Numbered from the stretch's first letter, positions 11,281-59,173 are shown. The stretch: 64,000 nt of DNA from an uncultured Candidatus Sumerlaeota bacterium (GCA_964389675.1 CAYMEV010000018.1:1-64000), one strand, 5' to 3'. The notes: generated by a model not told the origin, from the sequence alone. A program made the numbers and translations.

Positions 11281-11290
11281 TATCTTCTCC

Positions 11291-24934: not shown

Positions 24935-24966
24935 AAAAAAAGCCGGCAATTTATGCCGGCTTTTTT
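24935..24966. terminator. Bidirectional rho-independent terminator
   Basis: aaaaaaagccggca-attta-tgccggctttttt between convergent genes. Confidence 0.88.
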
Positions 24967-24985
24967 ATTTATTTTATTAGATATG

Positions 24986-27016: not shown

Positions 27017-27049
27017 AAAATTAACCTCCTGTATCAGTTAATAGTTATA

Positions 27050-27541: not shown

Positions 27542-27593
27542 TTAATTTCTCCCTGTAAAAGTAAAATTTTAATAAACAATCCTCTGATAATAA

Positions 27594-27621
27594 AATATAT
27601 ATCAAATCTTATCAATGTCAA
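27594..27621 (-). promoter_or_regulatory. Sigma70-type promoter for pilV1-pilX1
   Basis: Minus strand TTGACA-16 nt-TATATT. Confidence 0.5.
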
Positions 27622-27845
27622 TATTAACCTGTATATAATTATCAGGATAATTTTATCTGAGGCCTTAAATCCTTCATGTTCGGTATTTTAATCATAATAC
27701 CTGTGCAGGGGAACTTAATACCCTGTCATGTGTTTTCCTTGAAAAATAAGATATTTTTATGCAATAAACCTGCAAAATAGTTTGAATTATTTATTTGAGC
27801 ACTGTATATTTATCTATGGAAATAAAAAAACCAGGAGCAAAAAAA

Positions 27846-28967: not shown

Positions 28968-29006
28968 CCCTGTATTTTTTGCTGTTTTGTGAATTAGTTT
29001 GAAATT

Positions 29007-29738: not shown

Positions 29739-29745
29739 AAAAAAA

Positions 29746-31854: not shown

Positions 31855-31893
31855 AAATAAAATAACCCCCTATGGTTTTTGGATATGGTATAA

Positions 31894-32385
31894 CTATACC
31901 CCGAGGTATACAGATTTATTCAGGTCAATAACCGCCGGCATGGACATTGTCCTCTGCCTGCCTGTGGTATCAGTCCACCTGACGGTAACCACGACCCTGA
32001 CCCTCGGGCCATATTCCGGGTCTTCAGGCATACGGTTCACCAGTATCTGCCTTTCAAAGTTCTGATAACGGGGTATAAGGGGATTTCCGGGATCATCATA
32101 TCCTGCAACATTGGGCACTACATGGTTTGCAAGCTCTCGTATGGGCTGGAAGGTATTCATTATGGCATTACTTGCGAGGGCTGTCTGCACAGGGTTGGAC
32201 GGCTGATTTAAGAGCTCTATCGTGCCTGTAAGTATCTCTGAGGCTATGAGAAGATCCTGAGATGTCTCAACATTCTTGACTGAAAGGGGAAATATATTCG
32301 ATATTGCCAGTATGCCTATGGTAAACAGCAAAAGGGCTATCAGAACTTCAACAAGCCCGAAGCCTCCTGTTTTATTCCGTTTCAT
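31894..32385 (-). CDS. Type IV minor pilin, PilV-like (copy 2)
   Basis: TGG|FGLVEVLIALLLF and VTVRWTD; start set at ATG 32385 behind RBS aaggag. Confidence 0.8.
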   Translation of the reverse strand: MKRNKTGGFGLVEVLIALLLFTIGILAISNIFPLSVKNVETSQDLLIASEILTGTIELLNQPSNPVQTALASNAIMNTFQPIRELANHVVPNVAGYDDPGNPLIPRYQNFERQILVNRMPEDPEYGPRVRVVVTVRWTDTTGRQRTMSMPAVIDLNKSVYLGV

Positions 32386-32423
32386 ATACCATTCTCCTTT
32401 CATATAGAACATCTCCATTTAAA

Positions 32424-41911: not shown

Positions 41912-42856
41912 CGACGCAAAAGGGACGGTTCTTTTTGATTCATCCACGTTTCGATTTTTATTCACGGCTGATTCTACGAACCATACTGCTGCTTATATTA
42001 AGAAGGCTTGCAATATTACGCTGACTCAGGCTGGTTTTCTTTAATAGCCTCCTTACCGCCTCTTTTTTAAGTTCTTTGGAACTTAGGAGTGAACTGATAT
42101 CTTTGGTACCATAATAATCCATAATTTCGCTTAATATTTCCATTACTGCTGATTTTCTATTTCGTTCTATATCTTCTTTTGTATCCAGATATTCATTAAA
42201 ATCACTGCTAAAGTGAAATTCTATAAAATGTTCAAGATTATTATTAAAAAGGCTGATAATGAATTCCATCTGGTTTGGGGATACCAGAACAGGCCTTTTT
42301 GTAATAAACTCACGGTAACTGCTCCAACTATAACTGTCAGGCTTTTCAACAATTTTGGCTGCAACAGGGTTATTATGAATATACCTTATTAACTGCAAAA
42401 AATAAGTATCATCCCTTATAATTTCACTTCTGAACCTGTCCTGAAATACATGCCCTATCCTTTTCATTTTGCTGTTATATACCATGGCATACTGTATATT
42501 TATTTTTTTAAAGGCGTGTGAAAGGTCTTCAATTTCTCCATAAGCTAAAATATGTACATGATTATTCATTATACAGTAGGCAGCCAGTTCCAGAGGTTTC
42601 TCCATATAAAAAAGGTCTTTCAGCAGTCCTGTAAAATAGTGCTTCTGCTCATACCTCCGGAAAATAGCTTCGCGGTTATTTCCCCTCATCATCAGATGGT
42701 AATATTTTGTTGGACTTGTTTCCCTTGCTTTACGAACCATTTTTTTCACCTCTTTATAATCCTATACATGCTGAAAAAGAAGTTCAAGGTTTTTTAAATA
42801 GGAGTTTTAATAAAAACCTGAGGTTTGACGCAAAAAGAACCGTCCCTTTTGCGTCG
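41912..42856. mobile_element. RAYT/IS200-like HUH transposase unit flanked by perfect 26-bp inverted repeats
   Basis: cgacgcaaaagggacggttctttttg (41912-41937) is the exact reverse complement of caaaaagaaccgtcccttttgcgtcg (42831-42856). The interior is AT-rich. Confidence 0.8.
41958..42740 (-). CDS. REP-associated tyrosine transposase-like protein (Y1_Tnp + C-terminal HTH)
   Basis: YHLMMRGNNR..IF, AYCIMNNHVHIL (HUH), GHVFQDRFRS, RYIHNNPV, Y.WSSY, SQRNIASLLNIS HTH. Likely start ATG 42740. Confidence 0.9.
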   Translation of the reverse strand: MVRKARETSPTKYYHLMMRGNNREAIFRRYEQKHYFTGLLKDLFYMEKPLELAAYCIMNNHVHILAYGEIEDLSHAFKKINIQYAMVYNSKMKRIGHVFQDRFRSEIIRDDTYFLQLIRYIHNNPVAAKIVEKPDSYSWSSYREFITKRPVLVSPNQMEFIISLFNNNLEHFIEFHFSSDFNEYLDTKEDIERNRKSAVMEILSEIMDYYGTKDISSLLSSKELKKEAVRRLLKKTSLSQRNIASLLNISSSMVRRISRE

Positions 42857-46884: not shown

Positions 46885-48516
46885 ATGGAATCAAAGAGAA
46901 ACATATTCATACTCCTTTTTATATTTGGTTTTTCCATACTGCTGATAGGTATTATCAAGTCAGCATTTATATTCAGGAACATCAGCATCCCCGAAAGCTC
47001 TTTTATCAAGGTATCATTTTACGGCATACTGACACTGATACTCATGTCCTTCCACCTGTTCCTCCGATTTATTAAATGGCATCACCTGCTGAGGAACAAC
47101 CAGATACTCATACCGGTCAGGACTTCCATGCTGGGTTTCTTTTCAGGGTTAAGCCTTATATTCATCCCCCTTTTCATCGGTGAAACATACCTGCGCAGCT
47201 ATATCATATCCAGGAGGGAAAGGGTCAGCCTGAACTCAGTATTCAACACTGCCGCTGCCGACAGGGCATATGATATATTTGCAGTCCTTTTCTGGGGGAT
47301 ATTCTTTTTAGAATCAGATTACATCAGATTATTCTCATTTGTCTTATTTTCTGCAGTTCTTCTTGTGCCGGGGATCAAAACCTTCTTTATCAGGATGCTT
47401 GTAATAATAACCGGTTTTCTCCTGAGGCTTTTGGGCATAGCCTATATATCCCTTGACAGGGGGATCCTCCTGAATATCAGAAAGAGGCTGATGCTTAAGA
47501 ACCTTATACTGAGCATCTTTGCCTGGGCTGTCCCCTCCTTTATGGTCTACTGCATCCTTCAGGAGCATATCCCTGTCTCTGTTGCGGATGCATTCAGGTT
47601 CTTTGTAAATTCCACATTTCATCAGATCTTTGTTCTCTCATCAGGAGGCATAATCACTGCCGGCTCATATATGACAGGATTCCTCACCGGGGCAGGATAC
47701 CACTATGACCAGGCGGTAATTTCAACTTTTGTCTTCAGGATCTCCACGACGGGTTTTTCATTTTTGGCCGGCCTTATATCGGTTTTAAGCTTCAGGAAAT
47801 ACCTTTTCAACAGGCATGCCTGCACCCATTTCGAAGAGATCGCGGGGGAGTATGACGCTCAGATACCTGCTCACTCCACCAGGATCGTTGTAGATCGGAA
47901 GATGGAAAGAATGATTGAAGAGTTAGCGGTCAGACCAGGCCTTACGGGGCTTGATATTGGCTGCGGCCAGGGATATTACCTCAAGGAATTTGGAAATAGG
48001 GGGATAGATGCTGCAGGAGTAGAAAGCTCAAAAAACCAGCTGAGAAGCGCCTGCCGGCTTACTGAAGGCAAAAATCAGTTATTCAGCGCTTCACTTCCCT
48101 TTCTGCCATTCAGGGACGGATCATTTGATTTTGTCTATATAATAAATGTGCTTCACCACCTTCCTGACAGAGAGGCTCAAAAGAGTGCCATCAGGGAAAT
48201 CCTCAGGGTAACAAAGAAAAACGGGCTGGTATTCATCAATGAGATCAATACGCGGAATTTTATCTTCAAACTCTATATGAGCTATATCTTCCCTCTGCTG
48301 AATAATATTGATGAAGGCACGGAACAGTGGATAAACCCTGTTCATCTGGAAAATGAATGGCAGTCATTGCATGCAAAGACCAAATATTTTACATTCCTTC
48401 CCGAATTTACCCCCGGGATAGCCTGGAAAGTCCTAAGCCCTGCCGAAAAGCTTCTTGAGCGAAGCTTCCTTGGCAAATACTCTGCACACTACATATCCAT
48501 CCTTAAAAAGGCCTGA
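46885..48516 (+). CDS. Fusion of LPG_synthase_TM (flippase-like) domain and class I SAM methyltransferase
   Basis: N-terminal multi-TM region (LRFIKW, P..IGE, DR..D, GG, FR) followed by LDIGCGQG, LPF.DGSFD and VLHH motifs. Confidence 0.75.
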   Translation: MESKRNIFILLFIFGFSILLIGIIKSAFIFRNISIPESSFIKVSFYGILTLILMSFHLFLRFIKWHHLLRNNQILIPVRTSMLGFFSGLSLIFIPLFIGETYLRSYIISRRERVSLNSVFNTAAADRAYDIFAVLFWGIFFLESDYIRLFSFVLFSAVLLVPGIKTFFIRMLVIITGFLLRLLGIAYISLDRGILLNIRKRLMLKNLILSIFAWAVPSFMVYCILQEHIPVSVADAFRFFVNSTFHQIFVLSSGGIITAGSYMTGFLTGAGYHYDQAVISTFVFRISTTGFSFLAGLISVLSFRKYLFNRHACTHFEEIAGEYDAQIPAHSTRIVVDRKMERMIEELAVRPGLTGLDIGCGQGYYLKEFGNRGIDAAGVESSKNQLRSACRLTEGKNQLFSASLPFLPFRDGSFDFVYIINVLHHLPDREAQKSAIREILRVTKKNGLVFINEINTRNFIFKLYMSYIFPLLNNIDEGTEQWINPVHLENEWQSLHAKTKYFTFLPEFTPGIAWKVLSPAEKLLERSFLGKYSAHYISILKKA

Positions 48517-48570: not shown

Positions 48571-48579
48571 TGCTATAAT
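48571..48579 (+). promoter_or_regulatory. Extended -10 promoter element
   Basis: TGcTATAAT about 36 nt upstream of the GNAT start. Confidence 0.5.
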
Positions 48580-48615: not shown

Positions 48616-49722
48616 ATGATAATTAAAACTGTTACAACAAAAAAGGAACTTGAGGATTTTATTAATTTTCCGTATAAACTGTATGAGCCCTACCCAATGT
48701 GGGTACCCCCGCTGATCTCCCAGCAGAAAAGGATGCTTGACCCCGGGGCAAATCCATTTTTCAGCCATGCTGAAGTAAGGCACTTCCTGGCCTATAAGAG
48801 CAGTAAGGTCTCCGGCAGGATAAGCGCAATAATAGACAGAAACTTCAATGAATTCCAGAATGAAAACACAGGTTTTTTTGGCTTTTTTGAGTGTATTGAC
48901 TGCAGGGACACTGCCAATGAGCTGATAAAGGCAGCAGAAGATTTTCTGAAAGAGAGGAACATCGACACTATAAAAGGGCCTGTCAATCTCTCCACAAATA
49001 ATGAATGCGGGCTTCTGATCGACGGATTTGAACTCCCGCCTGTAGTAATGATGACCTATAACCCTCATTATTATACAGAATTCTTTGAAAACAGCCGTTT
49101 CAACAAGGCCATGGACATATACGCCTATATAATGTCAAAAGAGGATGTGGATGACAGGATAGAAAAGCTTATAGACTATGTATCCATTCCTGAAGGCTAT
49201 ACCTTCCGGACCATAAGGAAAAAAAACCTGAAGCGCGAGATAAGCCTTATAAAGGATATATACAATTCAGCCTGGGAAAAGAACTGGGGCTTTGTACCTC
49301 TCCAGGATGATGAATTTGATTTTCTTGCTGATGACCTGAAACATATAATAGATGAAGAGCTTGTATTCATTGTAGAAAAGGGAAGCGAAACAGTCGGCTT
49401 TTCTCTCGCTCTTCCGGACATTAACCAGGTCCTTGTCAAAATGAACGGGAAGCTTCTTCCCTTCGGTTTCCTGAAACTGATGAGGGGCATGAAAAAGATT
49501 GATACCATACGGGTAATTACAATGGGCGTAAAAAAAGAGCACAGAAAGACAGGGATTTCAGCCATGTTCTATCTGAAAACCATTGAAAACGGGCTCCGAA
49601 AGGGTTATACAAGGGCTGAATGCAGCTGGGTACTGGAGAACAATAAAGCCATGAACAGGGACCTGAGGCTTCTCGGGGCGCATAAATACAAGACCTACAG
49701 GATCTACCAGAAAGAAATATAG
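48616..49722 (+). CDS. YghO-like double-GNAT N-acyltransferase (bacterial ceramide synthase-like)
   Basis: FINFPYKLY...WVPPL, NPFF.HA, GRISA, GFFGFFEC, GP, GLLIDGF, YNPHYY, NWGFVP, LPDINQ, SWVLENN. Confidence 0.8.
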   Translation: MIIKTVTTKKELEDFINFPYKLYEPYPMWVPPLISQQKRMLDPGANPFFSHAEVRHFLAYKSSKVSGRISAIIDRNFNEFQNENTGFFGFFECIDCRDTANELIKAAEDFLKERNIDTIKGPVNLSTNNECGLLIDGFELPPVVMMTYNPHYYTEFFENSRFNKAMDIYAYIMSKEDVDDRIEKLIDYVSIPEGYTFRTIRKKNLKREISLIKDIYNSAWEKNWGFVPLQDDEFDFLADDLKHIIDEELVFIVEKGSETVGFSLALPDINQVLVKMNGKLLPFGFLKLMRGMKKIDTIRVITMGVKKEHRKTGISAMFYLKTIENGLRKGYTRAECSWVLENNKAMNRDLRLLGAHKYKTYRIYQKEI

Positions 49723-49731
49723 GGATTTGAG

Positions 49732-50703
49732 ATGAGGATACTTATTACCGGTTCCACCGGATTCATAGGCCTTAACCTGATTCAGCACCTTCACGCAGAG
49801 GGGCACCATATAACTGCTATAATACGAAACCCTGAAAAATCCTCTCTAATTGAAAAGCATGCTGACAGTATAATCATAGGAGACCTTAAGGAACCTGATT
49901 CACTCAAGAAAATATTCAAAGGCACTGAAATATGCTTTCACCTCTCAGGACTCACAAAATCAGTAAGACTGAAAGACTTCTGGGAGAACAACTATACTGC
50001 TTCGATAAATCTTATTGAAGAGATAAAAAGGACAGACCCGCCGATAAAGCATCTTATCATGCTCAGCTCGCTGGCAGCATCTTCTCCATGCTCTTCAGAG
50101 GAGGGTGTTGGGGAGGGTTTGCCTGAAAAGCCTGTATCAGCCTATGGCCAGAGCAAGCTTTCTGCAGAACTCTATCTCAGAAAAACAGCCCTGCCCTACA
50201 CTATAATAAGGCCTCCCATAGTATACGGGCCATATGACAGGGATGTATTTTCCTTTTTCAAAATGGCAAAACTGGGATTTATCCCGGTCATGGGAGCAAA
50301 AAAGAAATACTCGGTGATATATGTCGGGGACCTTGCATGTATCCTTTCCCGGATAATGGGCAAAGAGGCCGCTTTTGGCAAAATATACAATGTTGGCGAG
50401 CCTCAGAGCTATACTTATGGAGAAATTATTTCAGCAATATGCAGGGCAGTAGGCAGGAGATCCACCATAATAAACATCCCTGAGTTTCTTCTCTATATTA
50501 TTGCGCCGGTTTACGAGCTTTTATCCAGGATAACAGGGATATCCCCCATACTGACAAGGGATAAACTGCTTGAGATTGTACAGGATGGCTGGACATCAGA
50601 TACAGGCCTTATATCCAGGGAACTTGGCATCACAGCACAGACTACGATCGAAGCAGGAACAAAAATGGCATTTGACTGGTACAAACTGAATGGATGGTTA
50701 TAA
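49732..50703 (+). CDS. Extended SDR / NAD-dependent epimerase-reductase
   Basis: ITGSTGFIG, SSLAA, YGQSK, RPPIVYGP. Confidence 0.9.
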   Translation: MRILITGSTGFIGLNLIQHLHAEGHHITAIIRNPEKSSLIEKHADSIIIGDLKEPDSLKKIFKGTEICFHLSGLTKSVRLKDFWENNYTASINLIEEIKRTDPPIKHLIMLSSLAASSPCSSEEGVGEGLPEKPVSAYGQSKLSAELYLRKTALPYTIIRPPIVYGPYDRDVFSFFKMAKLGFIPVMGAKKKYSVIYVGDLACILSRIMGKEAAFGKIYNVGEPQSYTYGEIISAICRAVGRRSTIINIPEFLLYIIAPVYELLSRITGISPILTRDKLLEIVQDGWTSDTGLISRELGITAQTTIEAGTKMAFDWYKLNGWL

Positions 50704-50707
50704 GAAG

Positions 50708-51196
50708 ATGAGACATATATATGCCCCTCACCGGTCCTCATATTTTGAACTCCCCAGGGATGAGGAATGCCTTTTCTGCAGGCTTATAAGGGAGGATACT
50801 GCAAAGGACAGGGAAAATCTCATAATCTACAGAGGCAGGCTCTGTTTTGTCATGCTTAATAAATATCCGTATAATAACGGCCATACAATGGTAGTTCCAT
50901 ATGGTCACTTTACATACCTGAAAGAGCTGGACTCAAAGACCATAAGCGAGATATACACATACTTAAAGATCATTGAAAGCACTCTGCTGGATATTTATAA
51001 TGCTGACGGCATAAATATAGGCCTGAATATTAAAGAAGCTGCCGGCGCAGGGATCAGGGACCATATCCATTACCATATACTGCCGAGGTGGAAAGGGGAT
51101 TCAAACTTCATGACATCCGTTTCAGATACAAGGGTTGTCCCTGAGGATTTCCGTGAAACCTACAGAAAAATAAAATCCGGCTTTGAAGCTATCTAA
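50708..51196 (+). CDS. HIT family hydrolase (Ap4A phosphorylase-like)
   Basis: CLFC, LNKYPYNNGH, AAGAGI..HIHYHILPRW.GD.NFM. Start set at ATG 50708. Confidence 0.92.
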   Translation: MRHIYAPHRSSYFELPRDEECLFCRLIREDTAKDRENLIIYRGRLCFVMLNKYPYNNGHTMVVPYGHFTYLKELDSKTISEIYTYLKIIESTLLDIYNADGINIGLNIKEAAGAGIRDHIHYHILPRWKGDSNFMTSVSDTRVVPEDFRETYRKIKSGFEAI

Positions 51197-51220
51197 GCCC
51201 TTATGACAGATTAAAAATCA

Positions 51221-53386
51221 ATGGACAGATACAGACGCATAAAATATATAGTACTTGCCTTAGGGATCGGTTTTGTCATTGCAGTTACAGGCTATATAAT
51301 CAAAAGCAATATGGGAACTGAGACAAGGACCATAATTGATGAGGGCCCGGATATATCAGAAATTGCTGATGCACCTGACATACTGATAAAACCCTTCATA
51401 AGGGATAATATTGAAGGCGGTGAAGTCAGGTATTCCATTAATGCTTCAGAAGGAAGGCTTTATTCAGAATACGGCCCGTCAGGGTCTGTGATCAGCCAGA
51501 GGATAGAAATCTCAGAAATACATGAGATCAGGATATTCACCAAAGACGAAAGATCGGTAACTATTTCCGCAGACAGGGCAACAATTTTTACCCTGAGGAA
51601 TCAGACCAGGAATATATCACTTCACAGCAATATTGCCATAGAACACCCTTCAATGGGTATATTAAGGACACAGAACCTTGATTTCTCCTTTGCAGACAAT
51701 ATGATAAGAACAGAGGACAGCTTCATTATTGAAAACAAGGAAAGCATCATAGAAGGCAAGGGTTTTGAATACAATACTGTCACGGATAATGTAGAGGTAC
51801 TTGGAGGGCTTGAGGGAACCCTTTATTTTGAAGATAACCCTGAGCCTTTGTTTTTTATTGGAGAAACAATGCGTTATATTGAAGAAGAGTCCCGAATGGT
51901 AATGGAAAAACCGACAGCCTTCCTTTTTGACACCAGCTGTATGAAAGCAGGAAATACAGAAATATTTATGGACAGTGAAATGAATGTAGAAAGAATTGAG
52001 CTTTCTGACACTGTATCCGCAGAGCTTATTATGAAGAATGATAAGGATGAAAATGAGAGATACAGGCTTTTTTCAAGGAACATTAATATATTTTTCTATG
52101 AGGGCCGGCCCGGGAGTATGAGCCTTAATAACGGCTTTCTTATGGAAAAGATTGACGAAGATATGTTCATAAGCGGGCATCATGCACTGATCAGCTTCAG
52201 GGTATCAGAAGGTGGCTATATTGCTGAAAGCATTGACTTCTACAATGGATTCTATATTGATTATATTGATTCGGGATTTTCAGGCTATAACGGCACCATG
52301 GACCTTGATTCAGGTATAATGATGTCAGACAGCTCTCCGGTCATTTATAATTACCCTTATATCACAAAGGCCCAGGAGATAATCATAGATAACAGGCAGA
52401 AGACCATGAAGGCATCAAAGAATATCCATACCATCATCCCCGGTTATGAAAACGAGAACGAAGGCAAGGCATCGGATGCAGGGATCAGCGAATACAATTT
52501 CGACAGGATGGATATCCGCTCAAATAAAGTTGAGTATGACATGAAGAAGGATATGGTATGGTATAAAAATAACTGTGAAATTGATACTGATTCATTGACA
52601 ATTAGTGCAGATGACATTAAATTATATAATAAGAAACAGTTAGTGCAGATAACTGGAAATGTGAAGGGAAATCTTACCAGTAAAAGCGCCGGGAGCTCCG
52701 ATGAGGAAAAGTTATACTTTGATACAGAATACATGCATTATGATGCAAAAGGAGAAATAATCCTGCTGAAAGAGATTGAAAAGGCTTATCCGGTAGTTTG
52801 GCAGAAAGGGTTCAGGGCCTCATCAAAATCCATAATTGTAAAGCCGGGTGAGGATTATGTATTTTTCTCTGAAGAAGCTGAATCAGTATTTTTCAGGGAT
52901 TTTTACGAGGAATCAGGAGGGCAAAACGGATTTTTTTCCTTTGATGACTCTGACATGCCGGTTGAGGTCTCTGCTGACAGCATCGAGCTATTTGAAGCTG
53001 AAAAGATCATTATATACAGCGGCAGTGTATATGCAAAAAAGGGAGAAAATTCGCTTGCTACTGACCTGATGACAGTTTACATGGATGACCGGAGGTCCAT
53101 TGAAAGGGTGGAATGCATAAACAGCCTGAAAATCGGCGGAAAAGACAAATACATTGAAGGGGACAAAGGCACCTATTACAAGGATAATGAGGAGTTCCAC
53201 ATAGAGGGCGGTATCAATTATAATGATAAAATGACATCTTTACAAAATGCTGAAAAACTGATATACTATATAGATGAGAACAGATATTCAGTGTTCGGCA
53301 CTGAAATTATCACAAAATACAGGTTTGAAGAACCGCTTGAAGTGCCGAGGATCTTCCCTAAACACAAGAGGAATATTTTGAAATGA
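51221..53386 (+). CDS. Large LptC/LptA (OstA beta-jellyroll) fusion-like protein
   Basis: N-terminal TM anchor, LptC-like segment (LRTQNLDF..IRTED..IEGKGFEY) and repeated OstA-like strands with C-terminal PVEVSADS..IIYSGSV LptA-like domain; overlaps lptB. Confidence 0.75.
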   Translation: MDRYRRIKYIVLALGIGFVIAVTGYIIKSNMGTETRTIIDEGPDISEIADAPDILIKPFIRDNIEGGEVRYSINASEGRLYSEYGPSGSVISQRIEISEIHEIRIFTKDERSVTISADRATIFTLRNQTRNISLHSNIAIEHPSMGILRTQNLDFSFADNMIRTEDSFIIENKESIIEGKGFEYNTVTDNVEVLGGLEGTLYFEDNPEPLFFIGETMRYIEEESRMVMEKPTAFLFDTSCMKAGNTEIFMDSEMNVERIELSDTVSAELIMKNDKDENERYRLFSRNINIFFYEGRPGSMSLNNGFLMEKIDEDMFISGHHALISFRVSEGGYIAESIDFYNGFYIDYIDSGFSGYNGTMDLDSGIMMSDSSPVIYNYPYITKAQEIIIDNRQKTMKASKNIHTIIPGYENENEGKASDAGISEYNFDRMDIRSNKVEYDMKKDMVWYKNNCEIDTDSLTISADDIKLYNKKQLVQITGNVKGNLTSKSAGSSDEEKLYFDTEYMHYDAKGEIILLKEIEKAYPVVWQKGFRASSKSIIVKPGEDYVFFSEEAESVFFRDFYEESGGQNGFFSFDDSDMPVEVSADSIELFEAEKIIIYSGSVYAKKGENSLATDLMTVYMDDRRSIERVECINSLKIGGKDKYIEGDKGTYYKDNEEFHIEGGINYNDKMTSLQNAEKLIYYIDENRYSVFGTEIITKYRFEEPLEVPRIFPKHKRNILK

Positions 53387-54141
53387 AAACAGCCAATGTC
53401 CTTAAGGCTACAAAGATAGTAAAGGTATACAGAAAGAGAAGAGTCGTAAATGAGGTATCAATATCCCTGAAGCAGGGAGAGGTAGTAGGATTACTGGGCC
53501 CAAACGGCGCAGGCAAAACTACGAGCTTTTACATAATTATCGGGCTTATCAGGCCTGAATCCGGGAATGTATATCTGAATGATACAGACATTACCCACTA
53601 TCCCATGTTTCAGCGGGCCAGGATGGGGATCAGCTATCTGCCCCAGGAAACATCAATATTCCGCAAGCTTTCTGTAAAAGACAATATTATGATGATACTT
53701 GAGACCCTTCCAATATCAAGCGAAGAAAGGCAGGAAAGGCTCCATGTCCTCTTAAAGGAGCTTTCCATAGAATACCTTGCTGACAGCATGGCATACACTC
53801 TTTCAGGCGGTGAGAGGAGAAGGGTGGAGATAACAAGGGCCCTGGTACTGTCACCTTCGTTTATCCTTCTTGATGAACCGTTTGCCGGTATTGACCCGAT
53901 AGCTGTAGGAGATATACAACAGATAATCTTAAAGCTGAGGGAGAGGGGCATAGGGATACTGATAACTGACCATAATGTCAGGGAAACTCTCAAAATAACG
54001 GATAAAGCCTATATAATAAACGAGGGGAAGATACTTAAATACGGCTCCCCTGAGGAAATAAGCAGATCAGAAAGGGTAAGGAAATTCTATCTGGGAGAGG
54101 GATTCAGGATGGATACAGAAACTGGTGAGGCTGTGCGGTGA
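53383..54141 (+). CDS. lptB: LPS export ABC transporter ATPase
   Basis: GPNGAGKTT, YLPQETSIFRKL, LSGGERRRVEI, LDEPFAGIDP, TDHNVRETL, FYLGEGF. Confidence 0.96.
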   Translation: MKTANVLKATKIVKVYRKRRVVNEVSISLKQGEVVGLLGPNGAGKTTSFYIIIGLIRPESGNVYLNDTDITHYPMFQRARMGISYLPQETSIFRKLSVKDNIMMILETLPISSEERQERLHVLLKELSIEYLADSMAYTLSGGERRRVEITRALVLSPSFILLDEPFAGIDPIAVGDIQQIILKLRERGIGILITDHNVRETLKITDKAYIINEGKILKYGSPEEISRSERVRKFYLGEGFRMDTETGEAVR

Positions 54142-55610
54142 AGCTTGATATAAACCTGAATATAAAACCTGAACTTCGCCAAAAGCTGGCGATCACGCCT
54201 CTTTTGAGGCAATCGCTCGAGATACTTTCTCTCAGCCTTGTTGAACTCGATCAGATGGTACTGAAAGAGATGGAGCAGAACCCTCTGCTTAAGGATTCCA
54301 GCACCGAGTATTCATCAGAGGGCAAAACAGCGGAAGATAGCGAATATCAGCCAGAACAGCCGGAATATGAGACATATGAAGAACCAGCAGAAAATCTTCT
54401 GGAAAAATATGAAATAAATGAAGAAGCATGGGCAAATCTTTTCAATGAACTCCCAAAATCATCCGGATCAGCATTATTCATGAAGGAGAAACCCAGCATC
54501 GAACAGATAAATGCCATAAAGACGACTCTGAAAGAGCAGCTGGAATGGCAGTTGAGGCTGAATATTAATAATGATGATGATTATGTCATAGGCATCAACA
54601 TTATTGGAAACCTTGACAGAAACGGCTTTATAAGCCGTGAGGAACTCTCTAATATCTCAGATGAGCTAAAGTTCTCAATGGATCAGATAGAAAGAGTAAG
54701 GGAGATAATAAAGGGATTTGATCCCGTAGGCATTGCTTCTGTTGATATACCTGAATGCCTTCTTGCACAGCTGAAAGTCTGCAATACATATCATCCCGAT
54801 ATTGAAAAGCTGTTAAACGTACACTTTGATGACCTGAAAAATGGCGAATGGGATAATATAATAAAGGACAAAGAGCTTGGCCTCTCGGCTGAAGACCTCA
54901 AATACATTCTGGAGATACTGTCAAAGCTGGACCCAAAACCGGGGGGACACTTTGATGACCGGGAGGATGACAATATTGCCATTGTACCGGATATCATAAT
55001 AAAATATGATTCCGGAGACTACAGGATCGAGCTTAATGAGCATATAAGGCCAATGCTTTATATCCCTGAGAACTACAGGAAAGTGCTGTTGAATAAAAAC
55101 CCGGAAATGCAGGAAGACAGAGAATTTCTGAAAAAAAGGCTGGCACGGGCCCAATGGTTTATAAGAAGCATAGACCAGAGGAGGCAAACCCTTATTAAGG
55201 TAGGTGAATCCTTTATCAAGTTTCAGAGGGATTTTCTCGACAGGGGGCATAAATACCTTAAACCCATGATCCTGAAGGATATTGCTGATGATTGTGAAAT
55301 ACATCAGTCGACGGTCCAGAGGATAGTGAACCAGAAGTATATTGACACGCCAAGGGGAGTTTTCCTGATGAAATACTTCTTTTCAAAGGCCATACCAAAG
55401 AAAAACGGGGATCCTGTCTCAAGCCTTTCTGTGAAGAGAGAAATGGCTGATCTTGTAAAAAACGAGAGCAAGGATTCTCCTCTTTCCGACAAGGAGATAC
55501 ATCAGATCCTGGGGAAAAAGGGAATAAAGATAAGCAGAAGAGCTGTATCCAAATACCGTCTTGAACTTGGAATACCCAATTCAAATAAAAGAAAAAAACA
55601 GATATTATAA
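54138..55610 (+). CDS. rpoN: RNA polymerase sigma-54 factor
   Basis: Q/L-rich region I, FDPVGIA, ECLLAQL, LKPMILKDIA, PLSD and RpoN-box-like SRRAVSKYR. Confidence 0.95.
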   Translation: MKLDINLNIKPELRQKLAITPLLRQSLEILSLSLVELDQMVLKEMEQNPLLKDSSTEYSSEGKTAEDSEYQPEQPEYETYEEPAENLLEKYEINEEAWANLFNELPKSSGSALFMKEKPSIEQINAIKTTLKEQLEWQLRLNINNDDDYVIGINIIGNLDRNGFISREELSNISDELKFSMDQIERVREIIKGFDPVGIASVDIPECLLAQLKVCNTYHPDIEKLLNVHFDDLKNGEWDNIIKDKELGLSAEDLKYILEILSKLDPKPGGHFDDREDDNIAIVPDIIIKYDSGDYRIELNEHIRPMLYIPENYRKVLLNKNPEMQEDREFLKKRLARAQWFIRSIDQRRQTLIKVGESFIKFQRDFLDRGHKYLKPMILKDIADDCEIHQSTVQRIVNQKYIDTPRGVFLMKYFFSKAIPKKNGDPVSSLSVKREMADLVKNESKDSPLSDKEIHQILGKKGIKISRRAVSKYRLELGIPNSNKRKKQIL

Positions 55611-55627: not shown

Positions 55628-56170
55628 ATGAGAATCCAGATTACCGGGAAGAATTTCACAATTACCGATACCCTTAAAAGCCATGTTGAAGAGAAGATAA
55701 AGGGTATAAGGACATATTTTGATAATGTTATAGATGTTCATATTACCCTATATAAGGAAAAATACAGGTATCAGACAGAGATAAATCTCCACAGTAAGGG
55801 GAATGATTTTATAGTGAATAATACAGAAAAGGATATGTATTTTTCCATTGATAATGCAGTTGAAAAGCTTGAAAAACAGATTAAGAGATATAAGGATAAG
55901 GTTTTTAAGAAAACCGCCAGGCCAAAAGAGGAAATCTTTGAAGAGATGGAGGCTAAAAGGTCAGCAAAGGCTGAACAGGACAGAAAACCAAGAATTATGC
56001 ACATGGAGCACACCATAAGATCAAAACCGATGACCGTCGATGAGGCAGTTATACAGCTTGACTCTTCTCAGGATAATGTTGTTGTATTCCATAACTCACT
56101 CAGCGGGAATTTCGGTATTGTATTCAAGAGGCATGACGGGAATATAGGTTTTATAGAACCGCAGAAATAA
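55628..56170 (+). CDS. hpf: Ribosome hibernation promoting factor (long HPF)
   Basis: MRIQITGKN, DMY.SID...KLEKQIKRYK, C-terminal KPMTVDEA..Q domain. Confidence 0.95.
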   Translation: MRIQITGKNFTITDTLKSHVEEKIKGIRTYFDNVIDVHITLYKEKYRYQTEINLHSKGNDFIVNNTEKDMYFSIDNAVEKLEKQIKRYKDKVFKKTARPKEEIFEEMEAKRSAKAEQDRKPRIMHMEHTIRSKPMTVDEAVIQLDSSQDNVVVFHNSLSGNFGIVFKRHDGNIGFIEPQK

Positions 56171-56173
56171 AAG

Positions 56174-57118
56174 GTGATTATGCATATCCTTCTCAAAGAA
56201 CTTCTTAATATTGAAGAAATAGCTTCCATAATAGAACTGCTGCACCTGCATAATCCTGAATCAGTCATAAGCTCTCCCGGGATCAGATGCTCAGGATTAT
56301 CCCTTGCCGGCTCCTACAAGGACTGCCCGGAATCTCTCCTGCTTTTCGGGGAAGATGAATACAGCTATATTCAATCAATGGAAGCCGGCAGAGCCAGGGA
56401 TGTAATCAAACAGTTTATCAGCAGGCAGGACTGCGCCGGGATAATATTTGCCAAAGACTGCATCCCCGGAACCATAAGCTCCATAAGCAGCCCTGAAGCC
56501 AATCTGCTTGCTTCAAAAAGGGGATGGGAAGCGACAATGACCATTATTTCCGAAGCTCTCGAGGAACTGCTTGCCCCTGTAATGACCAGGCATGGCGTGT
56601 TTATGGATATATACGGTGTAGGGGTTCTCCTGACCGGGGAAAGTGGAATTGGCAAATCGGAGCTTGCCCTGGACCTGATATCCAGGGGGCACAGGCTTGT
56701 AGCAGATGATGTGGTTGAGATAAAAAAGGTGAGGTTTGATAAGATAAAGGGCCAGTCGCCCCCTGTACTGAAAGGCTATATACAGATAAAAGGGCTGGGG
56801 ATAATCAATGTTGAGAAGCTCTTCGGGATTGTCAGCACCAGGGGGATTAAAAGAATTGAGATGGTAATAAAGCTCATAGAAGATGATGATTTTTCATCTG
56901 TACAGCATCTGGGAACGGAGGAATCATTCACGGAGTATTTCGATGTATCATTGCCTTTGAAGACCATTCCTGTTGCCAGAGGAAGAGACATGGCAAAGAT
57001 CATTGAGGTTGCGACCAGGGACTATATGATGAAAAGAAAAGGGATACACCAGTCCGCTGATTTTCAGAACCAGAGAAAGGATATACTGCAGGAAATCCAG
57101 AAAGACATAAAAGGATAG
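56174..57118 (+). CDS. hprK: HPr kinase/phosphorylase
   Basis: HGVFMDIYGVGVLLTGESGIGKSELALDLISRGHRLVADD; the N-terminal domain is divergent. Confidence 0.92.
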   Translation: MIMHILLKELLNIEEIASIIELLHLHNPESVISSPGIRCSGLSLAGSYKDCPESLLLFGEDEYSYIQSMEAGRARDVIKQFISRQDCAGIIFAKDCIPGTISSISSPEANLLASKRGWEATMTIISEALEELLAPVMTRHGVFMDIYGVGVLLTGESGIGKSELALDLISRGHRLVADDVVEIKKVRFDKIKGQSPPVLKGYIQIKGLGIINVEKLFGIVSTRGIKRIEMVIKLIEDDDFSSVQHLGTEESFTEYFDVSLPLKTIPVARGRDMAKIIEVATRDYMMKRKGIHQSADFQNQRKDILQEIQKDIKG

Positions 57119-57121
57119 AAA

Positions 57122-57388
57122 TTGAAAGAAGATACCATAAAAGTCAAAAACCGCAGGGGCCTTCACGCGAGGGCAGCCACTCTTATTGTAAAGACATCCT
57201 CAAAATTCAAATCCAAGATAATGATAATTAAGGACAGTATGGAGATAAACGCAAAAAGTATTATGGGTGTGCTTATGCTTGCTGCAGAATATGATACCCA
57301 GCTGAAAATTACTGCAGACGGAGAAGATGAGGACACAGCCCTGAGTGAAATGATCAAGCTCTTTGAGCACGGCCTGATCGAGGAATAA
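57122..57388 (+). CDS. ptsH: Phosphocarrier protein HPr
   Basis: GLHARAA (His15) and NAKSIMG (Ser46). Confidence 0.95.
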   Translation: MKEDTIKVKNRRGLHARAATLIVKTSSKFKSKIMIIKDSMEINAKSIMGVLMLAAEYDTQLKITADGEDEDTALSEMIKLFEHGLIEE

Positions 57389-57403
57389 AAAAGGAGAAAT
57401 ATT

Positions 57404-59173
57404 ATGTCCATGGAAAAGCCGAATGTAATACTTTATGGTATAGGGGTTTATTCAGGGATTGCTATCGGAAAACCTCATTTCCTTGAGCATCCATTCGAGG
57501 ATGTAGTGATGAAGCAGATACCTGAAAACAAGATTGATTCAGAGGTTGAGCGTTTCAGGAATGCGCTGGATATATCAAAAAAACAGCTTGAAGAGATCAA
57601 ACAGCAGTATGGAAAGCTGCTCAGGGAGAAGGACATAATATTTGATGCACACATATTCCTCATTGAAGATGAAACAATAATCAAAGAGGTTGAGGAGCTT
57701 ATTATAAGAGAAAAAATAAATGCTGAATATGCTGTAATAAAAATAAAAGAAAAGTTCCAGAACGTTTTCAAAGAAATGGACGATGACTATTTCAAGGACA
57801 GGGCGAATGACATAGGGTATGTTACTAACAGGATACTCAAGAACCTCATGGGAAAAAGCTATAATGATTTCATTGACATAAGCGAACCGGGCATTGTCAT
57901 TGCCCATGATCTGTGCCCGTCAGAAACAGCAAGGCTTAAAAAAACAATGATAAAGGGCTTTGCCATAGAGATAGGCGGGCCAACAAGCCATACAGCAATA
58001 CTCTCCAGGTCACTTAAGATCCCTGCAGTTGTCGGAATAAAGGAACTAACGAAATACCATGGCACATTTGACTACTGCATTGTTGACGGCAATGAGGGGA
58101 TGGTAGTCCTGAACCCGACCGAGGAGCAGATTGCAAAGTCTCTTGTAAAACAGAAAAAGATGCAGAAACTGGAGGAGGAGTTTGATAAGCTCTCGACAAT
58201 ACCTGCCAGGACGAAAGACGGTCATTATATCCAGCTGAAATGCAATATAGACAGGGTTGATGAGATCGCAGACATGGCAAAATACGGTGCCGAGGGAGTC
58301 GGGCTGTTCAGGACAGAATACATATACCTTGAGAACAAGGAAGCACCTTCTGAGGACGAGCATTTCTCCATCTACAGGAAAGTAGCAGAGAATTCAAAGC
58401 CTTACCAGGTTACAATAAGAACCTTTGACCTTGGCGGAGATAAATTCACAAGCGAAGACAGATACCCCCATGAGCTTAACCCTTTTCTCGGAATAAGGGG
58501 GATAAGGCTTGCATTTAAGTATCCCGACCTTTTTCTCGACCAGCTCAGGGGAATCCTGAGAGCATCCGCCTATGGCAGGGTACAGGTAATGTTCCCGCTT
58601 ATATCAGGTATTGAAGAGGTTAAAAAAGCGAAGGAATATTTCTACAGGGCTCAGCAGGACCTGAGGGATAAAAATATTCCATTTGACCCGAATATCCCTA
58701 TTGGCGTAATGATCGAGCTTCCGTCAGCAGTGATGATCTCTGATATCCTTGCAAAAGAGGTTAATTTCTTTTCAATAGGGACAAATGACCTAATACAGTA
58801 TTCTCTGGGTATTGACAGGGTAAACCAGGATGTTTCATATCTGTACCAGCCTCTCCATCCTGCTATTTTGAGAATGATAGAAAGGGTGCTATTAAACGGC
58901 AAAAGAAACCGGATTGAGGTAAGCCTGTGCGGTGAAATGGCATCAGATCCATTCGGAATGGTCATACTGACAGCAATGGGATTTCGCGAACTCAGCATGA
59001 ACCCTTCATCCATACCCGTTGCAAAGACAATAATAAGACATTTTACAAGAGACCTTGCAGAGGACCTTATGGCTGAAATATATAAATACAATACACATAA
59101 GGAAATTAATAATATAGTTCTGAACTTTATCAATGAGCATGTTCCGGTATTGCTGGATATAATCCCTCACTGA
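57404..59173 (+). CDS. ptsI: PEP-protein phosphotransferase, PTS enzyme I
   Basis: GGPTSHTAI, GVGLFRTE, E.NPFLG.RGIR, FSIGTNDL.QY, CGEMA. Confidence 0.96.
   Translation: MSMEKPNVILYGIGVYSGIAIGKPHFLEHPFEDVVMKQIPENKIDSEVERFRNALDISKKQLEEIKQQYGKLLREKDIIFDAHIFLIEDETIIKEVEELIIREKINAEYAVIKIKEKFQNVFKEMDDDYFKDRANDIGYVTNRILKNLMGKSYNDFIDISEPGIVIAHDLCPSETARLKKTMIKGFAIEIGGPTSHTAILSRSLKIPAVVGIKELTKYHGTFDYCIVDGNEGMVVLNPTEEQIAKSLVKQKKMQKLEEEFDKLSTIPARTKDGHYIQLKCNIDRVDEIADMAKYGAEGVGLFRTEYIYLENKEAPSEDEHFSIYRKVAENSKPYQVTIRTFDLGGDKFTSEDRYPHELNPFLGIRGIRLAFKYPDLFLDQLRGILRASAYGRVQVMFPLISGIEEVKKAKEYFYRAQQDLRDKNIPFDPNIPIGVMIELPSAVMISDILAKEVNFFSIGTNDLIQYSLGIDRVNQDVSYLYQPLHPAILRMIERVLLNGKRNRIEVSLCGEMASDPFGMVILTAMGFRELSMNPSSIPVAKTIIRHFTRDLAEDLMAEIYKYNTHKEINNIVLNFINEHVPVLLDIIPH

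What the first reader, a model, noticed from the sequence alone, without database searches (positions are those of the whole stretch)
48616..54141. Ceramide-synthase-like GNAT and SDR co-transcribed with the Lpt lipid-export bridge
Seen: GNAT-SDR-HIT-lptC/A-lptB-rpoN lie on one strand with gaps of 9, 4 and 24 nt and then 4-nt overlaps, behind an extended -10 element, so they form one apparent operon. Established: bacterial ceramide synthase (bCerS) is a YghO-like GNAT, ceramide reductase (CerR) is an SDR, and in Caulobacter sphingolipid genes cluster with lpt paralogues. In many diderms the slot upstream of lptC holds Kdo genes (kdsD/kdsC), which are absent here. Inference: this lineage may make sphingolipids or another N-acyl lipid and export them through its housekeeping Lpt bridge. 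Serine palmitoyltransferase is not in the window, so the pathway is incomplete here.
Basis: partly seen in the sequence, partly recalled or inferred. Interest (0 to 1): 0.75.

Follow-up and report, generated by a model that had tools for sequence, protein, structure and literature searches.

The report
Ceramide genes inside the Lpt operon
An uncultured marine-sediment bacterium carries the two enzymes that finish bacterial ceramide synthesis directly in front of its only outer-membrane lipid export (Lpt) genes, which fits the recent idea that Lpt also carries sphingolipids but does not prove it.

Summary
GNAT (48616-49722), SDR (49732-50703), HIT, a 721-aa LptC-LptA fusion, LptB and RpoN lie on one strand with 9, 4 and 24 nt gaps and 4-nt overlaps. 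The GNAT is a full-length YghO/bCerS-family tandem GNAT (36% identity to E. coli YghO, E 6e-85). It nests among relatives that have a serine palmitoyltransferase gene next to them. The SDR is the reciprocal best match of the E. coli spt-locus reductase.

The genome encodes an Spt-like enzyme on another contig. It also has seven lipid A/Kdo genes over curated cut-offs, and I found one Lpt set only.

The link to lpt is narrow. It is shown in the one congeneric genome, inferred for two or three metagenomic relatives, and seen in none of 102 other loci from other phyla.

Likely function: Spt, bCerS and CerR make dihydroceramide, expressed together with Lpt. Export through the housekeeping Lpt stays an inference (about 0.3). 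A Lpt-sphingolipid link is already in print for Caulobacter (2024 paper, 2026 preprint).

This scan earlier noted Lpt genes beside ceramide genes on other DNA (e1-2366513, e1-4838656). No RNA data exist.

Verdict: new variant of a known kind, moderate interest.

The parts
46885..48516 (+). Upstream neighbour: LPG_synthase_TM (MprF-flippase-like membrane domain, residues 21-296) fused to a SAM-dependent methyltransferase (residues 338-457). It is separated from the GNAT by 99 nt. It is context, not shown to belong to the pathway.
   Evidence: Pfam PF03706 53.2 bits and PF08241 68.8 bits. The same position is held in G001 at 58% identity. No homologue was found near the GNAT in the 80 genome-contig loci.
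48571..48579 (+). TGcTATAAT, an extended -10-like promoter element 36 nt upstream of the GNAT start.
   Evidence: Read directly from the sequence. This is a consensus match only, not evidence of function.
48616..49722 (+). bCerS-like (YghO / Aca / CerS family) tandem-GNAT N-acyltransferase, 368 aa. Predicted ceramide synthase.
   Evidence: 36% identity over the full length to E. coli YghO, E 3e-85 and 6e-85. It is the only tblastn hit of YghO in the genome. In the tree it sits in an SH-aLRT 91 clade whose other five members outside the genus are all Spt-adjacent. The AF2 model has pLDDT 85.8, and its best PDB fold matches are tandem GNATs.
49732..50703 (+). CerR-like extended SDR (NDUFA9/epimerase type), 323 aa. 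Predicted 3-keto(dihydro)ceramide / 3-ketosphinganine reductase.
   Evidence: 26% identity, E 2e-30 to the SDR of the E. coli spt locus, with aligned GxxGxxG and YxxxK motifs. It is the reciprocal best hit in the genome. A homologue lies within 3.5 kb of the GNAT in 43 of 103 loci. PDB matches include NDUFA9. The tree placement is only moderately supported.
50690..51196 (+). HIT-family nucleotide hydrolase/transferase (HxHxH motif present; alternative start at 50708). Its role in the row is unknown.
   Evidence: PF01230 40.4 bits; NF052622 ATP adenylyltransferase 129.5 bits, below the cut-off of 290. Sequence read. The same position is held in G001 at 74% identity. It lies near the GNAT in 1 of 80 other loci.
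51221..53386 (+). Single-chain LptC-LptA protein, 721 aa: an N-terminal membrane helix, then an almost uninterrupted all-beta region that includes an LptC module and at least two LptA/OstA modules.
   Evidence: TIGR04409 70 bits (cut-off 38); TIGR03002 69.5 bits (cut-off 71.7); PF03968 with two stretches. The AF2 model has mean pLDDT 71, a helix at 2-31 and strands from 54 to 692. It is the only LptC/LptA-type gene found in the genome.
53383..54141 (+). LptB, the ATPase of the LPS export ABC transporter.
   Evidence: TIGR04406 367.7 bits, cut-off 240.
54138..55610 (+). RpoN (sigma-54).
   Evidence: TIGR02395 389.8 bits, cut-off 277.
55628..59173 (+). Downstream same-strand genes: HPF (55628-56170), HPr kinase (56174-57118), HPr (57122-57388), PTS enzyme I (57404-59173). 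This is the usual regulatory tail of lptB-rpoN clusters.
   Evidence: Pfam and NCBIfam hits over cut-offs.

Best explanation
The 368-aa GNAT and the 323-aa SDR are this lineage's bacterial ceramide synthase (bCerS/CerS/Aca, YghO family) and ceramide reductase (CerR). An unlinked serine palmitoyltransferase-like enzyme lies on contig C4. A PAP2_3 head-group-transferase-like protein lies on contig C1. The proposed pathway runs as follows. Spt condenses serine with an activated fatty acid to give 3-ketosphinganine. The C-terminal GNAT domain of bCerS N-acylates this product. CerR reduces the 3-keto group to give dihydroceramide. A phospho-head group may then be added. In this genus the bcerS-cerR pair has been separated from spt. 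It now sits, with a HIT gene, immediately upstream of the cell's only lptC/A-lptB-rpoN cluster, apparently as one transcription unit. Ceramide synthesis would therefore be expressed together with the outer-membrane lipid export machine. Shown here: family membership by sequence, fold and gene context; the gene order and its conservation in the genus; presence of Spt, the LPS genes tested and a single Lpt set. Inferred: enzymatic activity, the order of the two steps (taken from Caulobacter work), co-transcription, and any functional coupling to Lpt.
For: GNAT: 36% identity over the full length to E. coli YghO. YghO lies in the E. coli lptF-lptG-spt-ACP-SDR-acyl-AMP ligase-yghO locus. PMC9386255 lists it as the counterpart ('aca') of Caulobacter CC_1154 (passages read). 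PMC11324152 names CC_1154 cerS and CC_1164 cerR (passages). Context across phyla: of 103 loci with a full-length GNAT match, 64 have an Spt-like gene and 43 an SDR homologue within 3.5 kb. The adjacent aminotransferase-fold genes score best against NCBIfam serine palmitoyltransferase NF047600. Tree: window plus G001 sit in an SH-aLRT 91 clade with five Spt-adjacent GNATs. Fold: tandem GNAT, as in MshD and glucosamine N-acetyltransferase. SDR: E 2e-30 to the E. coli spt-locus SDR and reciprocal best hit. Own Spt-like gene at C4:107670-108854: best PDB match is Sphingobacterium SPT at E 1e-107, against Kbl at 5e-71 and BioF at 8e-57. It is 53-54% identical to GNAT-adjacent AOS genes and has an 85% identical orthologue in G001. 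Gene order MTase-GNAT-SDR-HIT-LptCA-LptB is kept in G001 although LptCA is only 55% and the SDR 68% identical. Each junction is confirmed in an independent run.
Against: No enzyme of this lineage has been assayed, and no lipid data exist. I could not obtain the Caulobacter or Bacteroides bCerS/CerR sequences, so the link to a characterised enzyme runs through E. coli YghO and the literature. The Spt-like protein scores 463 bits on NF047600, below the curated cut-off of 640. The SDR tree does not give a clean CerR clade, because own-genome paralogues fall inside the set of GNAT-linked SDRs. Some YghO-family subclades have no Spt next to them, for example nine Anaerolineae loci, so family membership alone does not fix the product. 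The row also holds functionally unrelated genes (HIT, rpoN, hpf, hprK, ptsH, ptsI), so operon membership is weak evidence of shared function. Promoter-like sites occur inside HIT (50847-50875, 50973-51001) and could drive lpt separately.
Confidence: 0.65

Rival explanations
1. Real ceramide genes, accidental neighbours. The bCerS-CerR pair makes ceramide, but it landed next to lptC/A-lptB by a lineage-specific rearrangement that has no bearing on transport. Ceramide lipids reach the outer membrane by another route or stay in the inner membrane.
For: None of the 102 other loci from other phyla has an LptC/A, a true LptB or an LptFG near the GNAT, apart from the known E. coli paralogues. The lptB-rpoN cluster habitually carries unrelated genes. 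A HIT gene of no evident lipid function sits between the SDR and lptC/A. Uchendu et al. themselves expect transport routes to differ between taxa and name an MmpL candidate in Myxococcus.
Against: The order is kept in G001 at 55-87% protein identity. It is probably also kept in two or three further metagenomic relatives whose LptCA is only 42-50% identical, as inferred from equal contig lengths. An independent and opposite kind of linkage, lpt paralogues inside sphingolipid loci, exists in Caulobacter and E. coli.
Confidence: 0.4
2. The GNAT and SDR make a different amide lipid, not ceramide. Examples are an N-acyl amino acid or amino-alcohol lipid, or a sulfonolipid-type product. The Spt-like enzyme on C4 then serves another alpha-oxoamine reaction.
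For: YghO-family subclades without Spt linkage exist. Earlier notes of this scan describe bCerS-like GNATs in non-ceramide contexts (unchecked AI notes). The C4 enzyme is below the curated Spt cut-off. A cysteate-fatty acyltransferase is among its PDB matches at E 3e-64.
Against: The window GNAT lies in a clade whose other members are Spt-adjacent. The C4 enzyme matches solved SPT far better (E 1e-107) than cysteate acyltransferase, Kbl or BioF. All three pathway genes have reciprocal best matches to the E. coli spt locus.
Confidence: 0.12
3. The pair modifies LPS or its precursors, for example by reducing and N-acylating a sugar. It would then take the biosynthetic slot that kdsD/kdsC fill in front of lptC in E. 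coli.
For: The SDR has epimerase/dehydratase-type domain hits, and the best fold match of the GNAT is a glucosamine N-acetyltransferase. Its position is upstream of lptC.
Against: The family's conserved partner across phyla is Spt, not sugar-nucleotide genes. The family also occurs in Anaerolineae and Solirubrobacterales records, groups generally regarded as lacking LPS (my recall, not tested here). The fold matches have only 11-14% identity.
Confidence: 0.04

Closest known systems
Caulobacter crescentus sphingolipid locus (CC_1152-CC_1168: spt, acpR, aasR, cerR CC_1164/CCNA_01222, cerS/bcerS CC_1154/CCNA_01212, lptF2, lptG2, lptC2)
   Same: It has the same enzyme families for the last two steps of ceramide synthesis. 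It also links sphingolipid genes physically to Lpt genes. LptF2/G2 were reported to bind the single housekeeping LptB (preprint 10.64898/2026.04.12.717747: abstract, introduction and discussion read; PMC11324152: passages).
   Different: In Caulobacter, extra lpt paralogues sit inside the sphingolipid locus. Here I found no paralogues. There is one fused LptF-LptG on C7 and one LptC-A, and the biosynthetic genes sit inside the housekeeping lptC/A-lptB-rpoN cluster. spt is unlinked, and no specialised ACP or acyl-ACP synthetase was found with the E. coli queries.
E. coli (non-K-12) yghO locus: lptF-lptG paralogues, spt, ACP, NAD(P) oxidoreductase, fatty acyl-AMP ligase, yghO
   Same: YghO is 36% identical to the window GNAT, the locus SDR 26% to the window SDR, and the locus Spt 39% to the C4 enzyme. 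All three are reciprocal best hits.
   Different: The E. coli genes form one locus with their own LptF/G copies. To my knowledge the E. coli enzymes are assigned by homology only (PMC9386255, passages).
E. coli kdsD-kdsC-lptC-lptA-lptB-rpoN-hpf-ptsN cluster (recalled textbook knowledge, not tested here)
   Same: It has the same backbone, lptC, lptA, lptB, rpoN, hpf and PTS-type regulators, with lipid-precursor biosynthesis genes in the slot directly upstream of lptC.
   Different: The upstream slot here holds ceramide enzymes and a HIT gene instead of Kdo enzymes. kdsD-kdsA lie on contig C2. LptC and LptA are one polypeptide.
Sphingolipid producers with a single lptFG (Bacteroidetes, Myxococcus), as discussed by Uchendu et al. 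2026
   Same: The genome holds LPS genes, sphingolipid genes and only one Lpt set. It therefore poses the same open question of whether one Lpt machine moves both lipids.
   Different: No operon link between sphingolipid synthesis and lpt genes is mentioned for those taxa in the sections I read.

Membership tests
Bacterial ceramide synthase bCerS / CerS / Aca (YghO family) | Full-length sequence homology to assigned members | tested here: met
   36% identity over 375 residues to E. coli YghO, E 3e-85 and 6e-85. YghO is listed as the counterpart of Caulobacter CC_1154 in PMC9386255. A direct comparison with the Caulobacter protein could not be made because its sequence was not obtainable here.
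Bacterial ceramide synthase bCerS / CerS / Aca (YghO family) | Placement among GNATs that are genomically linked to spt | tested here: met
   Tree of 104 sequences: window plus G001 form an SH-aLRT 91 clade with five GNATs that all have Spt within 3.5 kb. E. coli YghO brackets the family near the midpoint root. This was a quick search with SH-aLRT support only.
Bacterial ceramide synthase bCerS / CerS / Aca (YghO family) | Co-occurrence with Spt and CerR in the same genome | tested here: met
   An Spt-like gene lies at C4:107670-108854. The SDR is 9 nt downstream of the GNAT.
Bacterial ceramide synthase bCerS / CerS / Aca (YghO family) | Soluble tandem-GNAT architecture without membrane helices | tested here: met
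   The AF2 model has pLDDT 85.8 and pTM 0.85. Its top PDB matches are tandem GNATs: 5kf1, 7q3a, 2wpw, and MshD 1ozp/2c27. No solved bCerS appeared among the listed matches.
Bacterial ceramide synthase bCerS / CerS / Aca (YghO family) | N-acylation of 3-ketosphinganine or sphinganine | not testable with these tools
   Needs an enzyme assay or heterologous expression with lipid analysis.
Ceramide reductase CerR (CC_1164 type, NDUFA9-like extended SDR) | Extended SDR with an N-terminal GxxGxxG motif and a catalytic YxxxK motif | tested here: met
   GSTGFIG at residues 7-13 and YGQSK at 138-142 align with the E. coli spt-locus SDR. PDB matches include NDUFA9 subunits.
Ceramide reductase CerR (CC_1164 type, NDUFA9-like extended SDR) | Orthology to the reductase of a known spt locus | tested here: met
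   E 2e-30 to the E. coli locus SDR. The best tblastn hit of that SDR in the genome is the window gene at 104 bits, against 72 for the next.
Ceramide reductase CerR (CC_1164 type, NDUFA9-like extended SDR) | A distinct clade separate from other epimerase-type SDRs | tested here: inconclusive
   The nearest rows are GNAT-adjacent SDRs (L053, L054; SH-aLRT 85-87). However, own-genome paralogues also fall inside the linked set, and long branches meet.
Ceramide reductase CerR (CC_1164 type, NDUFA9-like extended SDR) | Periplasmic location, as reported for Caulobacter CerR (PMC11087976) | not testable with these tools
   The protein starts directly with the Rossmann motif and has no visible signal peptide. 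The same is true of the E. coli homologue.
Bacterial serine palmitoyltransferase (Spt) | Closer to known Spt than to Kbl, BioF or HemA | tested here: met
   PDB: Sphingobacterium SPT E 1e-107; Sphingomonas-type SPT about 4e-82; Kbl 5e-71; BioF 8e-57. The top NCBIfam hit is NF047600 serine palmitoyltransferase.
Bacterial serine palmitoyltransferase (Spt) | Score over the curated NCBIfam equivalog cut-off | tested here: not met
   463.4 bits against a cut-off of 640 for NF047600, and 330 against 670 for NF047603. The GNAT-adjacent AOS of L001 and L040 also stay below it, at 572 and 546 bits. I therefore call the protein 'Spt-like'.
Sphingolipid-locus Lpt paralogue system (Caulobacter LptF2/G2/C2 type) | Second copies of lptF/lptG (and lptC) beside the sphingolipid genes | tested here: not met
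   PF03739 finds two domains in one 813-aa frame on C7 and nothing else. PF03968 finds only the window LptC-A. This is the housekeeping set, so the locus is not a member of that system.
LPS transport machine Lpt (LptB2FGC-A-DE) | LptB, LptC, LptA, LptF/G and LptD all present, together with lipid A/Kdo synthesis | tested here: met
   LptB and LptC are over their cut-offs, and LptA reaches 69.5 bits against 71.7. LptFG and LptD are present. lpxC, lpxA, lpxB, lpxK, waaA, kdsA and kdsD are all over their cut-offs. LptE, MsbA, lpxD, lpxH/I, kdsB and kdsC were not specifically tested.

The most novel reading that the evidence does not exclude
In this deep-branching diderm the single housekeeping Lpt machine carries both LPS and ceramide-based lipids to the outer membrane. 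That machine comprises LptB, a fused LptF-G, a single-chain LptC-A bridge and LptD. The cell enforces the coupling by transcribing the last two ceramide enzymes from the same promoter as the bridge and the ATPase. This would be the mirror image of the Caulobacter solution, which places dedicated LptF2/G2 paralogues in the sphingolipid locus. It would answer the question left open by Uchendu et al. for organisms with one lptFG. The MprF-flippase-like/methyltransferase fusion directly upstream could then be the missing inner-membrane flippase or a tailoring enzyme for the lipid.
Probability: 0.3. Interest if true: 0.75.

Novelty: new variant of a known kind. Interest (0 to 1): 0.45.

Why it matters
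How bacterial sphingolipids reach the outer membrane is an open question. The only experimental system (Caulobacter) uses extra LptF/G paralogues that borrow the LPS ATPase. Its authors ask whether bacteria with a single Lpt set move both lipids through it. This locus gives independent gene-context support for a sphingolipid-Lpt link outside Proteobacteria. Here the ceramide enzymes have been brought into the housekeeping lpt operon rather than lpt copies into the lipid locus. It also supplies a compact gene set for reconstitution: spt, bcerS, cerR, one-chain LptC-A, LptB and one-chain LptFG. The enzyme assignments themselves extend known families to a lineage with only two species-level genomes in the collection searched. 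They are not new in kind.

Tried and rejected
- **RNA evidence for co-transcription:** no RNA holder was listed among the runs that hold the stretch. Only DNA contigs could be laid.
- **Direct comparison with Caulobacter CCNA_01212/CCNA_01222:** The control genomes of the genome search give no loci. The Nat Chem Biol 2022 paper (PMC8891067) is not held, so its text and Supplementary Data 1 were not seen.
- **Is the upstream LPG_synthase_TM-methyltransferase a general partner of bCerS?** No. tblastn and phmmer of the membrane domain against 821 neighbour ORFs of the 80 loci found none. Only two weak methyltransferase hits appeared.
- **Is Caulobacter's proposed flippase CC_1166 of that family?** No. 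Supplement S1 Text of PMC11324152 gives IPR002797.
- **Is HIT a general partner?** It was seen in 1 of 80 loci, 7 kb away.
- **SDR phylogeny:** unresolved.
- **Gene order in the Logan-only relatives (P0004/P0124/P0127 and P0005/P0125/P0128):** Only equal 'longest contig' lengths (19214 and 8932) suggest that these genes share a contig.
- **Earlier notes on this genome:** nothing relevant.
- **Sequence search of PDB with the GNAT:** no significant match, best E 0.34.
- **Specialised ACP, acyl-ACP synthetase and LptF2/G2 of E. coli as tblastn queries:** there was no convincing hit in the genome. This does not show absence.

Full report
**1. Observation**

| Gene | Coordinates | Length |
|---|---|---|
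| GNAT | 48616-49722 | 368 aa |
| SDR | 49732-50703 | 323 aa |
| HIT | 50690 or 50708-51196 | 168 aa |
| LptC/A | 51221-53386 | 721 aa |
| LptB | 53383-54141 | 252 aa |
| RpoN | 54138-55610 | 490 aa |

- The spacings are 9 nt, 4 nt (or a 14-nt overlap if the earlier ATG is used), 24 nt, and two 4-nt overlaps.
- TGcTATAAT lies at 48571-48579, and a GAAGGA ribosome-binding site precedes the GNAT start.
- The consensus scan found no terminator-like site in a + strand intergenic gap of the row. It did find promoter-like sites inside HIT.
- HPF, HPr kinase, HPr and PTS enzyme I follow on the same strand.
- Contigs from an independent study (run X2), identical to the window, bridge every junction up to lptC/A and the lptB/rpoN junction. 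A contig of X3 bridges lptC/A-lptB. The order is therefore not an assembly artefact.
- No RNA run holds the region, so co-transcription remains an inference from spacing.

**2. What the GNAT is**

- Pfam sees only a weak GNAT domain in the C-terminal half, and NCBIfam sees nothing.
- A protein search returned 7076 relatives with E <= 0.001 among the 7999 candidates scored. Most of the 120 listed are 370-390 aa.
- The protein is 36% identical over its whole length to E. coli YghO (E 3e-85 to K-12 YghO; 6e-85 to the intact form).
- In non-K-12 E. coli, yghO lies beside a fatty acyl-AMP ligase, an NAD(P) oxidoreductase, an ACP, spt and lptF/lptG paralogues.
- PMC9386255 (passages read) lists yghO as the counterpart of Caulobacter CC_1154. 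PMC11324152 (passages) names CC_1154 cerS and CC_1164 cerR.
- An earlier, unchecked note of this scan (e1-053440) gives 44% identity between YghO and the Caulobacter enzyme. I could not repeat that comparison.

**3. Gene context across phyla**

- A pattern scan of one genome per species found 599 confirmed relatives, and the best 80 loci were kept.
- I clustered the ORFs within 6 kb of the GNAT in these 80 loci:
  - The commonest neighbour is a roughly 400-aa protein directly upstream, in 44 of 80 loci. Four tested members have the Aminotran_1_2 fold. The two of these scanned against NCBIfam score best on serine palmitoyltransferase NF047600.
  - An SDR cluster is next, in 28 of 80 loci.
  - A PAP2_3 protein is third, in 13 of 80 loci.
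- I then counted by tblastn over 103 loci with a full-length match. These were the 80 loci, 22 of the 23 loci from 'relatives' genomes that have only 1.5 kb of flank, and E. coli. One locus was dropped because its GNAT match was short.
  - 64 loci have an Spt-like gene within 3.5 kb of the GNAT.
  - 43 loci have an SDR homologue within 3.5 kb.
- In a tree of the 104 GNATs, the window and its congener form an SH-aLRT 91 clade with five GNATs that are all Spt-adjacent. E. coli YghO lies near the midpoint root. Some subclades, such as nine Anaerolineae loci, show no linkage.
- The AF2 model (pLDDT 85.8) is a tandem GNAT. Its best PDB fold matches are a glucosamine N-acetyltransferase, MAB_4324, the clavulanate tandem GNAT and mycothiol synthase. 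This fits an amine N-acyltransferase whose C-terminal domain carries the acyl-CoA site.

**4. The SDR**

- It has the GxxGxxG and YxxxK motifs. It matches the E. coli spt-locus SDR at E 2e-30, and that SDR's best hit in the genome is the window gene.
- PDB sequence matches include NDUFA9 subunits.
- In a tree its nearest rows are GNAT-adjacent SDRs. Support is moderate, and own-genome paralogues fall inside the set. The CerR assignment is therefore weaker than the bCerS one.

**5. The rest of the pathway and the envelope**

- The genome is 93.8% complete.
- *Spt-like enzyme.* It lies at C4:107670-108854 and is 53-54% identical to GNAT-adjacent AOS genes.
  - Its best solved relative is Sphingobacterium SPT at E 1e-107, far ahead of Kbl and BioF.
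  - Its best NCBIfam hit is serine palmitoyltransferase, but below the curated cut-off.
  - Its neighbours are citrate lyase genes, an unknown 570-aa protein and a squalene/phytoene synthase-like gene.
- A PAP2_3 protein lies on C1.
- G001 has an 85% identical Spt on a contig other than the GNAT contig.
- *LPS genes.* lpxC, lpxA, lpxB, lpxK, waaA, kdsA and kdsD all score over their curated cut-offs. kdsD-kdsA and a HAD phosphatase sit together on C2, without lpt genes.
- *Lpt.* There is one LptF-LptG fused in an 813-aa frame, one LptD and no LptC/LptA-type gene besides the window protein.
- The organism is therefore predicted to make both LPS and ceramide lipids with a single Lpt set.

**6. 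The Lpt side**

- The 721-aa protein has an N-terminal helix (residues 2-31) followed by beta strands from 54 to 692 (AF2, pLDDT 71, only four sequences in the alignment).
- Only three other proteins of 396-1262 aa in the 5.8-billion-sequence collection matched it, at 55, 50 and 42% identity.
- Their 'longest contig' lengths (30670, 19214, 8932) equal those of the SDR relatives P0126-P0128. For 19214 and 8932 they also equal those of the GNAT relatives P0004 and P0005.
- This suggests, but does not show, that the genes share contigs in these relatives.

**7. How far the linkage reaches**

- Among 40 other genomes offered as relatives, one is of the same genus and 39 are labelled only 'same domain'.
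- In the congener the order methyltransferase fusion-GNAT-SDR-HIT-LptCA-LptB is kept. Protein identities are 58, 87, 68, 74, 55 and 85%.
- In none of the other 102 loci is an LptC/A, a close LptB or an LptFG found near the GNAT. The only exception is the known E. coli paralogues.
- The association is thus lineage-specific.

**8. Comparison with what is known**

- PMC11324152 proposed, and the 2026 preprint by Uchendu, Isom and Klein (abstract, introduction and discussion read) tested, that LptF2/G2/C2 encoded in the Caulobacter sphingolipid locus serve sphingolipid export.
  - The preprint reports that LptF2/G2 bind the sole LptB.
  - It favours use of the shared LptA/D/E.
  - It asks what happens in producers with one lptFG.
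- A full-text search for sphingolipid, LptC, LptB and ceramide together found four records: this preprint, PMC11324152 and its preprint version, and a eukaryotic lipid-transport review. I read none of them in full, and nothing in the passages I read describes ceramide genes inside the housekeeping lpt operon.
- Earlier notes of this scan report related cases on other DNA (unchecked):
  - a fused, probably sole LptFG in an operon with ceramide genes (e1-2366513);
  - dedicated Lpt sets in sphingolipid loci (e1-4838656, e1-5064443, e1-2074132);
  - single-chain LptC-LptA proteins (e1-2963539, e1-918360).

**9. Verdict**

- The enzyme assignments are well supported: bCerS about 0.8, CerR about 0.7, and a working ceramide pathway about 0.7.
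- The operon reading is plausible but untested.
- The functional claim that ceramide lipids leave through the housekeeping Lpt is consistent with the published Caulobacter model. It is made somewhat more likely by this converse arrangement. It rests on gene order in one narrow lineage within a cluster that habitually mixes functions, so I give it about 0.3.
- The finding is a new variant of a known kind and of moderate interest.

Noticed in passing
window 46885-48516 (+): A 543-aa fusion of an LPG_synthase_TM (MprF-flippase-like, former UPF0104) membrane domain with a SAM-dependent methyltransferase lies directly upstream of the bCerS-like gene. It keeps that position in G001 at 58% identity. 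An earlier scan note (e1-2074132) reports a UPF0104-like protein with an Lpt set in a sphingolipid island elsewhere. I found no such neighbour in the 80 other GNAT loci.
   Followed up: partly
window 51221-53386 (+): LptC and LptA are one 721-aa membrane-anchored all-beta chain. Only three other such proteins (42-55% identity) matched in the 5.8-billion-protein collection at 396-1262 aa.
   Followed up: partly
G000:C7:123733-126141 (-): LptF and LptG are fused in one 813-aa open frame. It is the only LptF/G found in the genome.
   Followed up: partly
L081 9950-11662 and 11643-12671 (G000:C4): Directly downstream of the Spt-like gene lies a 570-aa protein with no Pfam or NCBIfam match. An overlapping squalene/phytoene synthase-like gene follows, so the three may form a lipid operon.
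   Followed up: no
L082 6903-7808 (G000:C1): A PAP2_3 (Aur1/sphingomyelin-synthase-like) membrane protein is 39% identical over 204 residues to a PAP2_3 gene that sits beside the GNAT in L007. It is a candidate ceramide head-group transferase and is unlinked here.
   Followed up: partly
L131 (G000:C2:108759-112514): kdsD, kdsA and a HAD-type phosphatase form a row of their own without lpt genes. The Kdo-lpt linkage seen in E. coli is broken in this lineage.
   Followed up: partly
loci L006, L035, L041, L057, L058, L063, L068, L071, L074: A subclade of YghO-family GNATs from nine Anaerolineae/Chloroflexota records has no Spt-like or SDR gene within 3.5 kb. Several of these contigs are short. 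It may be a functionally different branch of the family.
   Followed up: no
window 23740-32418: A run of seven ORFs of 163-702 aa on both strands has no Pfam match at E 1e-6.
   Followed up: no
window 41958-42749 (-) and 1896-2204 (-): An IS200-like (Y1_Tnp) transposase gene lies about 6 kb upstream of the operon. A transposase HTH fragment lies near the window start, beside a polysaccharide export and synthesis cluster at 2324-13999.
   Followed up: no
whole genome G000: Of 40 other genomes offered as nearest relatives, only one shares the genus and the rest are labelled 'same domain'. The lineage seems very sparsely sampled. The runs that hold half or more of the stretch's sampled words (X1, X2) are marine sediment metagenomes.
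   Followed up: no
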